From Eledone cirrhosa (lineage: Eukaryota), in contig OZ024741.1 of assembly GCA_964016885.1 (NCBI GenBank), positions 326,864,001 to 326,928,000 on the forward strand: a stretch of 64,000 bases of DNA, written 5' to 3'. Below the pieces are notes generated by a model that searched no databases, had not been told where the DNA came from, and saw only the letters and a program-made list of their open reading frames with translations. Positions 3,736 through 57,660 of the stretch are shown here, piece after piece (the first letter of the stretch is position 1; each line of letters begins with the position of its first letter). The position numbers and the translations under genes were made by a program.

Positions 3736-5840
3736 AAATACAATTTAATACAAAAAGAAAATTTAGATTGAGAAGAAAGAATGGAATGTAAAGTAAGAAA
3801 ATATTTAGAAAAAACGGAAAAAGAAAGATATGGCAAGGGCTCTAGTAAACGTAATGAGACAAGGAGAGTTGAGTGAGGCGGAACGTGTGAATTGATGTGG
3901 CACGGGTCCTGTAATGGTAGAAAGGGCACAGGCAGGTGACGTCTGTTGAATTAGAAGCCTGTGTGTCTGAAATGGATATCAAATGATTAGCTGATTAAAT
4001 GTTTCCTAGATACCAGTTTGAGTAATATCAGCACTTAAGTATGACTCATTTATATTATGGGAATTATTGGAGATATATTTTTAAATGTTTCACTCTCAGA
4101 GTTACGTATGTGCCGTCCACTGATCGTGTTAATATATGAATCATCACCATTTAAAGAATTAAAGTGATATGACCGGTGTAATTTTACCAGAGTAATTTTA
4201 CTGGAGCCCAAAATGCGTGCATAGACGGCAAACTAGCGGTGTCTTTAGAATGTCAGTTACAATGTGTTGCGGTATTTGTTCCACGCTTTTGCGAGCCAAT
4301 TTCAAAACACGCTTAAGATAGCATAGTCTATGATCCGTTCAAGATCGATAAAGATGTACCAGGTCAATACTAAGGTACATCCGCCCTGTATATTTCTTTC
4401 TCACTTTCTCTCTAATACAATCTTTCCGCGTCTCTTGAAGAATTTGGCTGTATTTAGACATGGAGCGTTTGGGGTCCGCCAGGCTTAAAATGTCCAACAC
4501 ATGATGTATGTCACTAAGGCGCTTCTACGATACCATCAGGAGTTATAAGTCCGTAGCGAATACTTTATATTATGTATTCATAATATAATAATGTTTTGCT
4601 GTTCATGCCTAATCTGACATAGATTGACCACAAAAAATGATGACAAGCATTCCAGGCATCCAGTCAATCGGAGACATTTTGCAATATACCTTTCTTATTT
4701 TAAAAAAAGATAGGATTAAATGTAAATACAATTTGGCTACTATTTCCTGCTGGTTGAACAAACGTTTAGATATTTATTTACTGGCTTGAAGAGAATTAAT
4801 CATAGAAAAGTGGTTTTATACTATTATTACATAAACTCAGATAGATCTCTTTTTATAAATTAGATAGAAATAAACTTTGAAATCAAAAATATATTAGATA
4901 CCATCATTATTTTCTTATAACCTCATATATAAAAAGATACGTACAATGAAATTTAAAAAAGGATAATAAATAAACGATAATAAATAAATGATAATAAATA
5001 AATAAAACAATAAACAAATAAATAAATAAATAAAAGCACCATTATTGTTGAATTTATGAATGTTTCTTTAAAACTATTAATGAAATCTGATGACAGTGAT
5101 TTTAATGGTTTGCGGCATTAGAATCTGAAATATGTCAGATTAAAAATCTGCAATTACGTAAAATATTTTGACAGTTTGAAAAGTATCGACAACTCATTCA
5201 ATGCCCAAAGTAAGAAAATCTGAAGAAAAATTTAAAGGAAAAATTTAAATAATATAATATAAAATTTCTCTTCACTATTAATACACATGGCACGAATACC
5301 AATACAGACATAATTAATATCAGATACTACACAGATAAGGTGAGTACACAATGTGTGTTTGGGTACAGAATTGGTTCGTGTGTATGTATGCGTGTGTGCA
5401 TGTACATACACACACACACACACACACACACACATATATATATATATTTATATATGTATTTATACATATATATAATTTTCACTTCTGGTATTCGTGTAAC
5501 GTAATGTGATCACTGATGGAGGATTAATTAATTTGTCACGTCATTGAATGTTTCGAGACTCAAATCATTCTCGTGGTGTTGCCCCATTGCAGCTTCAGCT
5601 TCGATATGATACAGGAAACAATATCTATATCTATCTATCTATCTATCTATCTATCTATCTATATAATAATATTATTTATAGTTATATATACATTATATAC
5701 GCTTATAAACAGGAAAAGTCAGTAACTCATTACTACCTTATTACCAGTAAGAAAAATATCTCAATGTAAATACATCAGATGTTTTACAGAGCAGCAATAT
5801 AAATTACACAATAATCAAAAGTAGGTTCAAATCCTTTTAT

Positions 5841-5887
5841 TGCTGACAATCGTTTCTTCCAAACTTTCGTTTGTATTCATCGGAGCA
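5841..5887 (-). ncRNA. Hammerhead ribozyme type I, CCGAUGA core variant
   Basis: TGCT CCGATGA atacaaac-gaaa-gtttggaa GAAAC gatt GTC AGCA, then ATAAA. Confidence 0.65.
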
Positions 5888-6626
5888 CTAGCAAAGTTTA
5901 GACGAATAATTAACTTCCTATTCAACTGAACAATCATGGATATTAATGCTGTCATCAACAGGTTCGTATTTACAGAGTGGAATGGATGTGACAGAGATTA
6001 CAAGAGAATTGTATAATAATTAAAGAGGCACAGAGTGGAATGCATGCGACAGAGATTACAGAGGAATAGTATAATAATGAAAGATGCATTAAGGTAGAAG
6101 GTTACTCGTAAAACGAGGACACTAGCAGTACATATGCAAGCGTATAGAGAGTAGTGTAAATGCATTAGACATATACAGGACAGGCGCATCACCCCCCCCC
6201 CCCCACCCACACACATATATATATATATATATATATATATATTTATATACTTATTTATACATATATATAATTTTCACTTCTGGTATTCGTGTAACGTAAT
6301 GTGTTCACTCTGATGGAGGATTAATTCATTTGTCACGTCATTGAAAACGCATTTGCACTCTCTATGCCCATGCATATGTACTGCTAATGTCCTCGTTTGA
6401 CGAGTAATTTTCTACATTAATGCCTCTTTAATTATTATACTATTCCCTTGTAATCTCTCTCGCATGCATTCCACTCTTTAATTATTATACAATTCTCTCG
6501 TAATCTCTGTCACATCCATTCCACTCTGTAAATACGAAACTATTGATGACAACATTACTATTCATGTATCGTTATGATTGTTCAGTTGAATAGGAAGTTA
6601 ATTATATGTCCAAACCAATTTGCTAA

Positions 6627-6673
6627 TGTTCCGATGATTCCAAACGAAAGTTTGGAAGGAACCATTGTCAGCA
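6627..6673 (+). ncRNA. Hammerhead ribozyme type I, second arm copy (CCGAUGA core, GGAAC mutation)
   Basis: tgtt CCGATGA ttccaaac-gaaa-gtttggaa GGAAC catt GTC agca ATAAA. Confidence 0.55.
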
Positions 6674-7439
6674 ATAAAATGATTTGAACAAAGTTTTGAT
6701 TATCGTGTAATTTATATATATATATATATATATATATATATATATATATATATATATATATATATATATATATATATATATATATATGTATAGTTATGTC
6801 AGGTCACCAGTTGGTGCTACTGGTAACATGTATCCCAGTACAACCTGTCTCATGGTCGGGTCGTTGGCGACTAAACTGGCAACCCCACCAAGGTTTCTTG
6901 GTGAGGAGGGTGACTTTGGACATCCTGCAGGACTAAAAACAAAACCTGTCAAAGGGCAAAGGAGCTCTTAAGAGTCAATGGCCATCCAAAATCACCGGGA
7001 GAGATGACCCCTTAGCCTTTGTCAAGGCAGAATTCTAGGAGAAGGAAAACTCTGATATAACACCTGCAACCCTGATGGTATCCAATGATGTTGACTTGTT
7101 CTTCTTTTTGGTAAATATCATCTTGGTTAAGAGAGTGGGACTGGCTTTGTGCAGTGCCTTTGCTCACTATAAAAGCTTCACGGCACAGGCATTGCTTTAT
7201 ATCTGGAGATCTCTCTGCACTTGTCGTCACATGGTACCATGGGCCCAGCACTATGTGTCAATAATTGTCACAAGTGTAGTGTTTGTACCAGAGTTTTCAA
7301 GTCGCTGGCTGGACTAAAAAGTCACAGTCGTTCAGCGCATCGGTAGGGGTTCTCCTACATGGATATAAAGTAGTCGCCGTACTCGAAAACGAGTTGGCAG
7401 CCACCATATGTATAGTAACTAGAAATTGATTAACATATA

Positions 7440-55115: not shown

Positions 55116-56132
55116 CAGTTGCTTTCACTTCAATTTATTATATATTTATAAATTTACAAATTTACAAATCTATAAATTTCTGGTTGGTTGGTTGGTTCCA
55201 CAACCAGGTAGTTGTTTATATATAGTCATAGTCCTTTCGTCACACACTCTGTGACCTCTTCAGTGACTGGGGATTCTTTTCTTTGTTTCTGTGCCTTTCC
55301 TTTCTTCTGTCCTACGCCATTTTGTTTCTGTGTGTGTGTTGTGTGCTCAGTTTGCGCATGCGCCACATATGATAAAATTAGTCCTTCGTCAGTGATTTGC
55401 CAACCATCATTGATATTTCATCGCATTATATATAGATATGCTTATACAGAACTAGAACTCTTTTATTCGCAACAAATCGCCAGAAAAGTCCCTTTCTATA
55501 TATAATTAAAATGCCTACATTCCATCAACGTATTGAGTACTTTTTTTTACCTGTCACATCCTCCCGATACCCTGTTGGCTTGATAATATTAAGAGAACAA
55601 ATCGGGATAAGAGGAAGAAAAATAAGAAACATAAATAATGTTACATTCGGAATATTTATTTGTATCAATATATTTCCGACGTCTCGACCTTTATGAAGGG
55701 TTCAATCGGGGAGCCAGGATAATGTCGGTGAGGATATTATTGATATTACAAAAATCTGAGTGGTTAGTGTATATATAGACACTGAACTTTTAAATGTGTA
55801 ACAGGTTACCACAGGAAACATTTTTAATATTAAATGATTTGACTTTCACCTGGTTTACCCAGGCGAATGAAGACACTTTACGATTGTCCTACGGCGAAAG
55901 CACAGATACAACGGTCACTTTAAATTGCCCAGCTGAAAATCTGCCTGCCATCTATCAAGGATAGAGCAACATTCAGAAAGGAAGATTTATCTCTATATAT
56001 ATAAATCTAATCTGAGTTTTTCGAATATTAATGATAATATTCGATTCATTTGCAATAATGCAAACAGCCTCTTTTAAGCCACGTCAGTAGAATGAGCCCC
56101 TCATTCTTGCTCTTGTGTTGGCATGTAAACAT

Positions 56133-56181
56133 AACTGCAGACACTAATGTTTCTGGGTGATTACCATTCATCAGTACAGTT
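56133..56181 (-). ncRNA. Minimal hammerhead ribozyme type I (solitary)
   Basis: aactgta CTGATGA atgg-taatcac-cca GAAAC attagt GTC tgcagtt. Confidence 0.7.
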
Positions 56182-57269
56182 TACTGTTCACTTGCCAACG
56201 GCGTGTCAGAGAAAAAAGAGAAAGGTGAAGAAAGAGCTGGAATAGATACAGGCAAAAGAGAAACAGAAGAGAAAGGATGTCATGCAAATGAAATCATAAC
56301 AGTTCGGCTGAGTTATGCCAAGGGTAGACTGGTGCAGAACCAGCCATATGTATCGAACGATTAATCTCATCGTTGTTTATCCGTCAATACGCTGTCGAAT
56401 CGCCGAAACTTTATAGTAGCCGATAAAATTGCGTAACAAAAATAGTAATACACCGAAAAAAAATGAAAAAGAAATAAACAAAAATTTCATTAGAAACGAT
56501 TTAACGCACACATACATATTCAAGCCCATTTAAATATGTTTCAATTTATAAAACATGAATATTAATTAAATGGAATGCACAGAGCAGTGATCATATTACA
56601 GACAGTTGTACATTTACAAGAAGAATTGCATTATTGATGCACATTTGCTAGATATTAGAATAAAATTCCATTAAATGAAATATTTAATAGACGTATCAGC
56701 TGGTGATAATCCGATGTGTACAATATTATTTTGTTTTTGCAAATTTTTTTTATATGACCAGAGTTTGTGACTTTTTATTTTGTGAATTTCATATATGACA
56801 ATAAGGATTCTCTCCTTCACCACTACCCGCAACTTATCAATACATGTTTAATAAAATGTATATAATATTTTAAATTGTAATCAATACAGTGGAGGTTCTT
56901 TGGGAGAAACAACGATATCAGAGATATTTAAAAATAAAAATTTAGAGCACAAACTGAGCTATGAGTTTCAATCTTATTGGAGAGTTCTCATATTTTAATA
57001 GAGGCCACAATGCTATCGTGAAAATTAAGGTAAAATGAAATACTCTGCTCCAGAACATGTTGTGTTTGCAAGATATTAAGCCTATGTATTCACAATCATC
57101 TGTTTAACACTATACATATTAATGCAATGGCACTGTCATGATACTATAAATTAACAGGTTTTAAATTCTACTCCAGCTGATAATTTTTTCAGGAAAACAA
57201 AATATAAACAGGCGCTTATACTGGAAATATTTTTAAGATTGGAATAATAGATGAATATATATATATATA

Positions 57270-57660
57270 TATTGTTTTTCTTTGGGAGGATCATGCTGCC
57301 AATAAAGACACACGCACCTGTTGGTTTTCACTTCAATTTATTATAAATCTCCGGTTGCTTGGTTGGTTGGTCCGATAACCCGATGGTTGTTTATATATTG
57401 TCAAATCTATTTTGTCACACATTATCTGACCTCCTCACTGACTAGGTTTTTATTTTGTCTCTCTCCTTTTTTCTGTCCTATACCATGTTGTTTTTGTGTG
57501 TTAAGCAACCAACCAACCAGAACATTATAATAAATTGAAGTGAAAACAAACAAGTGCGTGTGTTTTTATTGGCAGCATGACCCTCCTAAAGTATAACAAT
57601 ATCTGTTTCAACAAGTATTTTCAGATAAGAAATCTTGTGAAACAAAGTAAAAAACGAAGT
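57270..57660. mobile_element. Older diverged foldback of the same pLTR family
   Basis: 57270-57500 resembles the pLTR; 57505-57660 is an inverted pLTR end. Confidence 0.75.

What the first reader, a model, noticed from the sequence alone, without database searches (positions are those of the whole stretch)
5797..57660. Consistent tail-out foldback architecture: left arm antisense, right arm sense, 3' ends usually abutting (TA)n
Seen: in at least 12 unrelated inverted structures (5797-6715, 8125-10645, 12255-13815, 19060-19932, 21228-22550, 23790-25087, 28940-29485, 31040-31975, 37769-38116, 42597-44824, 45685-46180, 46511-47425, 57270-57660) the HHR/AATAAA 3' ends point outward and the 5'-truncated ends are fused in the middle. 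Known: PLE insertions can carry inverted pLTRs. Inference: both ends of a break in a TA tract prime reverse transcription and the two cDNAs join head-to-head. This would make PLEs a source of long palindromes and potentially of dsRNA, which is relevant to the heavy A-to-I editing in coleoids.
Basis: partly seen in the sequence, partly recalled or inferred. Interest (0 to 1): 0.72.

Follow-up and report, generated by a model that had tools for sequence, protein, structure and literature searches.

The report
Penelope palindromes carry exactly one tail
These mirror-image DNA inserts are real head-to-head stumps of Penelope-like jumping genes, a shape already described in print; almost every one has one long and one short end, which likely means both sides of the DNA cut start copying the element's RNA at two fixed neighbouring points, while the proposed link to RNA editing is untested.

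Summary
All 13 structures are real and all are tail-out by independent markers (hammerhead direction or ORF). In a 1.65-Mb genome sample, same-family neighbouring hammerheads outside the window and its flanks are tail-out 25 times and tail-in once. They are insertions of many Penelope-like element (PLE) families. Head-to-head inversion, a one-sided tail and (TA)n targeting are in print (PMC3846280, PMC8557442). In 70 of 81 classified pairs, and 77 of 79 after hand curation, the pair has one of each; none has two E1 ends. Either arm can be the longer, and some arms do not overlap. This best fits coupled twin priming at two internal start sites, as seen in vitro for an anole PLE (PMC11167929). 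The ends are not AATAAA 3' ends (4 of 26). I found no A-to-G excess, no ends at the ribozyme cut and no microhomology excess. No empty site was seen. The scan already reported this reading many times, in this genome and others.

The parts
5690..6712 (.). Tail-out PLE insert; tail on the left (5690-5801), arms 5802-6166 / 6346-6712 (84%), decayed hammerhead in both arms
6167..6345 (+). Junction spacer holding a same-strand copy of the upstream host flank (about 5370-5548)
8130..10647 (.). Tail-out PLE insert: long antisense arm with RT/GIY-YIG ORF pieces (8801-10268, minus) and hammerhead (8233-8282, minus); short sense arm 10409-10647; not TA-flanked; ends unresolved
12112..13815 (.). Tail-out PLE insert; EN ORF piece 12636-13109 (minus) with CxCx5C linker (Hydra-type); U3-A8 hammerhead read by eye; tail on the left
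19060..19933 (.). Tail-out insert; left arm is one unit plus the start of a second tandem unit, hammerhead 19518-19580 (minus); tail on the left
21152..22553 (.). Tail-out insert; U3-A8 hammerhead in the right arm; tail on the left
23782..25086 (.). Tail-out insert; two tandem 540-bp antisense units, then a sense arm with the tail
28944..29483 (.). Family A tail-out insert; 216-bp arms 99.5% identical, hammerheads 29110-29138 (minus) and 29229-29257 (plus); tail on the right
31044..31971 (.). Family A insert; 855-bp tail-less antisense arm and 73-bp tailed sense arm
37686..38115 (.). Near-perfect hairpin 37770-38115 (95%) with a hammerhead per arm, plus an 84-nt tail on the left
42513..42580 (.).
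42600..44822 (.). Young tail-out insert of a 591-bp tandem unit (2.5 antisense units, 1.3 sense units, 99.5-99.7%); U3-A8 hammerhead read by eye; the two outer ends lie 165 nt apart in the unit
45687..46189 (.). Tail-out insert; hammerhead 45865-45888 (minus); short tail on the left
46513..47516 (.). Tail-out insert; hammerhead 46559-46605 (minus); about 90-nt tail on the right
50940..55368 (-). Near full-length family A PLE: pLTR-ORF-pLTR; 155-aa and 1085-aa frames separated by one stop; RT and C-terminal GIY-YIG motifs; hammerhead in each pLTR; no inverted arm seen
57273..57660 (.). Older family A-related tail-out insert; tail on the right

Best explanation
These are head-to-head insertions of endonuclease-bearing Penelope-like retroelements with one tail-less and one tailed end, likely built by coupled twin priming on one RNA. 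Shown in sequence: PLE identity, tail-out orientation, two fixed ends per family, one of each per insert, variable inner ends, TA flanks. Inferred steps: (1) the GIY-YIG endonuclease nicks both strands of a (TA)n target. (2) One RNP, probably a dimer, primes from both 3'-OH ends at two fixed internal sites of the pLTR-ORF junction, E1 and E2, about 25-165 nt apart. (3) Both cDNAs run towards the RNA 5' end, the E2 copy displacing the E1 copy where they overlap, and stop at a break or at the transcript start. (4) Host end joining fuses the two cDNA ends. If one primer fails, a solo copy ending at E1 or at E2 results.
For: Bimodal ends in most of the 20 probes given an E1 position, out of 23. 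Of 93 tail-out pairs, 81 could be classified: 70 E1/E2, 9 E2/E2, 2 E1/E1 (p=1e-11 against 50%). After reading the 11 exceptions: 77 E1/E2, 2 true E2/E2, 0 E1/E1, 2 unresolved. Of the 70: E1 arm reaches further 5' in 19, E2 arm in 15, near-equal in 17, no or too little overlap in 12, unassigned in 7; a fold-back of a tail-primed cDNA cannot directly give a longer or non-overlapping E1 arm. Asymmetry does not grow with arm divergence (rho 0.11-0.16, n.s.). Solo copies end at either site. Inner ends are near-equal more often than chance: 31% vs 8% of 58, and 5 of 16 family A pairs away from the putative start site, p=0.001. Arms differ by a median 3.3% vs 7.8% for a typical copy; the mate is closest or tied in 23 of 41, with 2.7 expected. 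In vitro, the anole PLE cleaves and extends both strands, starts at two internal sites that bound the tail, and is predicted to be a dimer (PMC11167929).
Against: No empty site or TSD was seen; they cannot be resolved in (TA)n. In vitro both strands used the same start sites, so the coupling is not shown biochemically. Same-molecule templating is not proven: only 28 shared private changes in 17 of 46 structures, with no A>G excess (2 A>G, 5 T>C), and the best other copy is as close as the mate (median 3.5% vs 3.3%). Junctions show no microhomology excess (5 of 15 measured have 1-2 nt, none 3 or more). Palindrome centres can be deleted after insertion (own knowledge), which could mimic a longer E1 arm. 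E1 positions were set from the same data, and the curation of exceptions was by eye.
Confidence: 0.6

Rival explanations
1. One cDNA is primed at the tail end and folds back on itself (or self-primes on an antisense template, as PMC3846280 proposes). The endonuclease then resolves the intermediate at E1, and later deletions at the palindrome centre make the arms unequal.
For: It gives tail-out orientation, near-identical arms, near-equal inner ends and exactly one tail with no extra assumption. PMC8557442 ascribes the tail to EN-mediated resolution.
Against: The E1 arm is longer in 19 of 70, by up to 2.6-3.0 kb in pairs with arms 99-100% identical, and 12 pairs overlap little or not at all (window 42513-42580). 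Solo copies end at E1. There is no age trend. In vitro RT starts at both tail boundaries.
Confidence: 0.2
2. Both target ends prime, but on two RNA molecules held by an asymmetric dimer that forces one E1 start and one E2 start.
For: It explains the one-tail rule and overlapping arms without strand displacement. Most pairs have unequal inner ends, and shared private changes are few.
Against: There is an excess of near-equal inner ends away from the putative start site (5 of 16, p=0.001), and both arms match the same family probe group with low mutual divergence.
Confidence: 0.15
3. Independent insertions pile up in the same TA tract, or the palindromes are long-read chimeras.
For: The region is dense in PLE copies, and one structure has 99.5-99.7% identical arms. 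No read spans a structure.
Against: Different-family neighbours are biased the other way (15 tail-in, 2 tail-out). 20 of 21 tail-in pairs, but only 7 of 93 tail-out pairs, have 10 nt or more of TA between them. Median arm identity is 96.7%. A chimera would not end at two family-specific sites.
Confidence: 0.03

Closest known systems
Endonuclease-positive PLE insertions with an inverted 5'-truncated pLTR and a one-sided tail (Adineta Pen2a, PMC3846280, passages and Discussion read; D. virilis Penelope, PMC2377424, passages; all clades, PMC8557442, passages and section 11)
   Same: Head-to-head inversion ('most frequently observed'), tail at one end, partial tandems, pLTR reaching into the ORF start, hammerhead in the pLTR, (TA)n bias.
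   Different: The passages read describe the tail as optional or often one-sided. Here it is counted as a near-strict one-of-each rule over many families, with tails of about 25-165 nt rather than 30-40.
PAc (Poseidon from Anolis carolinensis) in vitro reaction (PMC11167929, parts 1-2 of 4 read)
   Same: Both strands cut and extended; two internal RT start sites bounding the tail inside the ORF start; hammerhead cleavage not needed; AT-rich targets.
   Different: The parts read do not address inverted products or coupling of the two sites, and report no strand difference in start-site use.
L1 twin priming (Ostertag and Kazazian 2001; seen only as summarised in PMC9148063)
   Same: Both target ends prime on the RNA, giving an inverted 5' piece with cDNA ends joined in the middle.
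   Different: In L1 one primer uses the poly(A) tail and the other a site somewhere in the middle. Here both sites are fixed, internal and close, so the arms overlap into a palindrome. That L1 pieces barely overlap is recalled.
Non-LTR retrozymes (bioRxiv 10.64898/2026.07.22.740005, passages)
   Same: Short tandem hammerhead units related to PLE pLTRs, as at 23782-25086 and 42600-44822.
   Different: Here they insert with the same tail-out, one-tail architecture as coding PLEs.

Membership tests
EN+ Penelope-like elements | PLE-type RT (DKG-like motif, RT core) with GIY-YIG endonuclease in one ORF | tested here: met
   Family A 1085-aa frame: DKSG, MDVVSLYPS, YVDD, CxxxxCxxC, VYSIRC...YIGET. 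Pfam gave 0 families for it, but GIY-YIG for 8804-9232; several homologues carry PF01541 or PF00078. Most short inserts have no coding part and are linked by hammerhead and architecture only.
EN+ Penelope-like elements | pLTR from partial tandem, overlapping the ORF start | tested here: met
   50940-51293 repeats 55015-55368 at 98%; the upstream frame starts in the pLTR.
EN+ Penelope-like elements | Type I hammerhead in the pLTR | tested here: met
   Own scanner: 13 cores in the window vs 0-2 in shuffles; 120 full folds in the sample vs 0 in 414 kb shuffled. Rfam found none. Four window structures rest on cores read by eye. Cleavage not tested.
EN+ Penelope-like elements | Inverted 5'-truncated copy and tail at one end | tested here: met
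EN+ Penelope-like elements | Target-site duplication | tested here: inconclusive
   Flanks are (TA)n and no empty site was recovered.
Hydra clade of PLEs (12112-13815 only) | C-terminal EN with CxCx5C linker and no CCHH; (TA)n target | tested here: inconclusive
   CNCHLPETC and TA flanks fit; the RT is absent from this copy and no tree was built. The clade of family A was not determined.
L1-type twin priming product | Two cDNAs primed from opposite target ends on one RNA | not testable with these tools
   Indirect only.
L1-type twin priming product | Short microhomology at the inversion junction (feature recalled) | tested here: not met
   15 of 17 family A junctions measured: 1-2 nt in 5, none 3 or more, unassigned letters in 10; null mean 0.64.
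MITE / TIR DNA transposon | Symmetric fixed termini with a conserved interior, no RNA polarity | tested here: not met
   Ends are asymmetric, inner ends vary and hammerheads give polarity.
ADAR hyper-editing substrate | Transcribed long dsRNA with clustered A-to-G changes | not testable with these tools
   The hairpin is predicted (z -42), but no RNA was examined; no A>G excess in DNA copies.

The most novel reading that the evidence does not exclude
PLEs integrate by a built-in twin-priming reaction. A dimeric RT-EN uses two fixed start sites on one RNA, one for each end of the cut, so the inverted pLTR and the tail are one signature. In this octopod-like genome that has planted on the order of 150,000 hairpins of median ~140 bp, which would be a major class of ADAR and small-RNA substrates wherever they are transcribed.
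Probability: 0.3. Interest if true: 0.72.

Novelty: new member of a known kind. Interest (0 to 1): 0.42.

Why it matters
How PLEs make their tandem and inverted insertions is named as an open question in PMC8557442. The one-of-each-end rule ties the inverted arm to the two RT start sites found in vitro and gives a sharp test for the existing PAc assay. It also corrects annotation: the visible palindrome is not the whole insert, and such inserts can be mistaken for MITEs or microRNA hairpins (one search gives sub-threshold miRNA matches). At about 52 per Mb in the sample they are a large potential source of dsRNA, but that role is not shown.

Tried and rejected
Rfam found no hammerhead, only sub-threshold miRNA matches and one tRNA. 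A DNA search of the genome returned nothing because common words are skipped, so sampling was used instead. A strict hammerhead scan missed most cores. Ends at the predicted ribozyme cut: 0 of 55 ends within 40 nt fall within 4 nt of it, so that lead was not reproduced in this sample. Fossil A-to-I editing: shared arm changes 2 A>G vs 5 T>C of 28; 327 copies gave 139 A>G vs 143 T>C and no A>G-dense copy; rare edited copies could be missed in 0.06% of the genome. No junction microhomology excess. AATAAA rejected as an orientation marker. No RNA holder listed. Contigs and RAD reads did not span any structure or show an empty site, and only part of the window was laid. Apparent 'flank duplications' at the 19060 and 45685 junctions are better read as the start of a second tandem unit. 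Literature: 'Penelope + twin priming + inverted' gave 2 papers unrelated by their listing (one checked, L1 only) and 'Penelope + twin-priming' gave 0. Subscription papers and all supplements were not seen, so a prior proposal in print is not excluded.
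Full report
Observation. Self-alignment recovers all 13 inverted structures at the stated places. Eight have canonical hammerhead cores; two of the 13 have PLE ORF pieces on the minus strand of the left arm; one is oriented by homology to a near full-length element; four rest partly or wholly on cores read by eye. Three of those four are U3-A8 variants, a covariation already described in PLE hammerheads (PMC4209133, passages). 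All 13 are tail-out. Three belong to one family (A), whose near full-length copy lies at 50940-55368 on the minus strand with RT and GIY-YIG motifs. Its closest named relative is an Octopus vulgaris protein at 68% identity, which fits an octopod host but does not identify it. AATAAA is not a feature of the ends (4 of 26).

Beyond the window. I took 1.59 Mb from fixed positions on 20 contigs, including 100 kb on each side of the window; one 50-kb satellite block was left out of the hammerhead and self-alignment scans. Among same-family neighbouring hammerheads within 3 kb, outside the window and its flanks, 25 are tail-out, 1 tail-in and 20 tandem (p=8e-7). Different-family neighbours go the other way, 15 tail-in to 2 tail-out. 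With 23 end probes there are 93 tail-out, 21 tail-in and 56 tandem pairs. 20 of the 21 tail-in pairs have a TA tract between them, as separate insertions would, against 7 of the 93 tail-out pairs. Chimeras are unlikely because the median arm identity is 96.7% and the ends are family-specific, but no read spans a structure. The density is 72 pairs in 1.39 Mb, about 155,000 if extrapolated; this is rough and covers these probes only.

Most families have two fixed outer ends, a tail-less E1 and a tailed E2. In family A both lie in the first ~85 nt of the ORF, 60 nt apart, so they are not transcript 3' ends. Of 93 tail-out pairs, 12 could not be classified; of the other 81, 70 have one E1 and one E2 (p=1e-11 against the 50% maximum for independent choice). 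Reading the 11 exceptions gave 7 more E1/E2 (four tandem inserts whose outermost ends had been missed or misread, two other-subfamily tails, one mispaired), 2 true E2/E2 and 2 unresolved; no E1/E1 remains. In the window, 12 of 13 have one tail; 8125-10645 is unresolved. Solo copies end at either site.

Arm anatomy. Among the 70 pairs the E1 arm extends further in 19, the E2 arm in 15, they are near-equal in 17 (within about 25 nt, the resolution of the aligner), overlap little or not at all in 12, and are unassigned in 7. The tail cannot be copied from an E1 arm, and a longer E1 arm cannot be copied from the E2 arm, so at least 19 need two templated syntheses or a later central deletion. Asymmetry does not track age. 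Inner ends are near-equal more often than chance (31% vs 8%; 5 of 16 in family A away from the peak, p=0.001). Family A 5' ends peak 310-330 nt upstream of E2 (8 of 26 ends in a 23-nt window chosen after the fact). The peak lies between a GCGCATGCGC word and an AAAATGGCG word (NRF1-like and YY1-like; names recalled). Run-off at an internal promoter is the likely cause; D. virilis Penelope has one (PMC2377424, passages), and the reading was prompted by earlier notes. Arms are closer to each other than to a typical copy (3.3% vs 7.8%) but not closer than to the best other copy (3.5%).

Results against. No microhomology excess at 15 measured junctions. No 5' ends at the predicted ribozyme cut (0 of 55). 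No A>G excess among changes shared by both arms or among 327 copies. No empty site. One of 41 spacers, the 5797 structure, holds a same-strand copy of non-family flank, which suggests an occasional jump onto target DNA or templated end joining.

Mechanism. The best fit is coupled twin priming: both target ends prime at two fixed internal sites on one RNA, and the two cDNAs are joined (0.6). The anole PLE shows the needed chemistry in vitro, with both strands cut and extended, two start sites bounding the tail and a predicted dimer (PMC11167929, parts 1-2 of 4). Rivals are fold-back or antisense self-priming with EN resolution and later deletion (0.2; PMC3846280, PMC8557442), a two-RNA asymmetric dimer (0.15), and independent insertion or artefact (0.03).

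Comparison and novelty. Head-to-head inversion is called the most frequent arrangement in PMC3846280. The inverted 5'-truncated copy, the one-sided tail and (TA)n targeting are in PMC8557442, and opposite-strand hammerhead pairs 100-700 bp apart are in PMC4209133. The architecture is therefore known, and these are new members. I found no paper proposing twin priming for PLEs, within a library that lacks most subscription papers; supplements were not read. The scan's own notes reached the same reading many times, including in this genome; these are not independent support. The editing link is plausible, since young repeats are the main A-to-I targets in metazoans (PMC9989829, passages) and one structure folds into a 216-bp hairpin, but no RNA was examined.

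Noticed in passing
window 6167-6345 vs 5370-5548: The junction of the first structure holds a same-strand copy of the upstream host flank, 140-320 nt from the insertion; 1 of 41 spacers tested.
   Followed up: partly
tails of several families, e.g. window 37686-37769 and 47425-47516: A GAGTGCT-like word recurs 55-90 nt before E2 in 9 of 23 probes (GAGCACT in two of them); a candidate protein-binding or start-site signal.
   Followed up: partly
window 39346-40562: 173-bp inverted termini around an AT-rich interior that is multi-copy as a whole (contig depth about 490 vs about 10); looks like a TIR/MITE element, not a PLE.
   Followed up: partly
window 40603-40827: 95% palindrome centred on the 3' part of a very abundant SINE-like repeat and extending into AT-rich flank; a tRNA-like match lies at 40855-40927.
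   Followed up: no
   Followed up: partly
window 7588-7640 (minus): Another U3-A8 hammerhead family, with a copy downstream of the window.
   Followed up: no
L140-L144 block, positions about 28800-34270: 5.4-kb tail-out palindrome of 8 plus 10 tandem 310-bp hammerhead units, still with one tailed and one tail-less end.
   Followed up: partly
window 14512-15249 (minus) and 63349-63948 (plus): LINE-like fragment with a PHD finger (Pfam), and a further PLE-like RT fragment.
   Followed up: no
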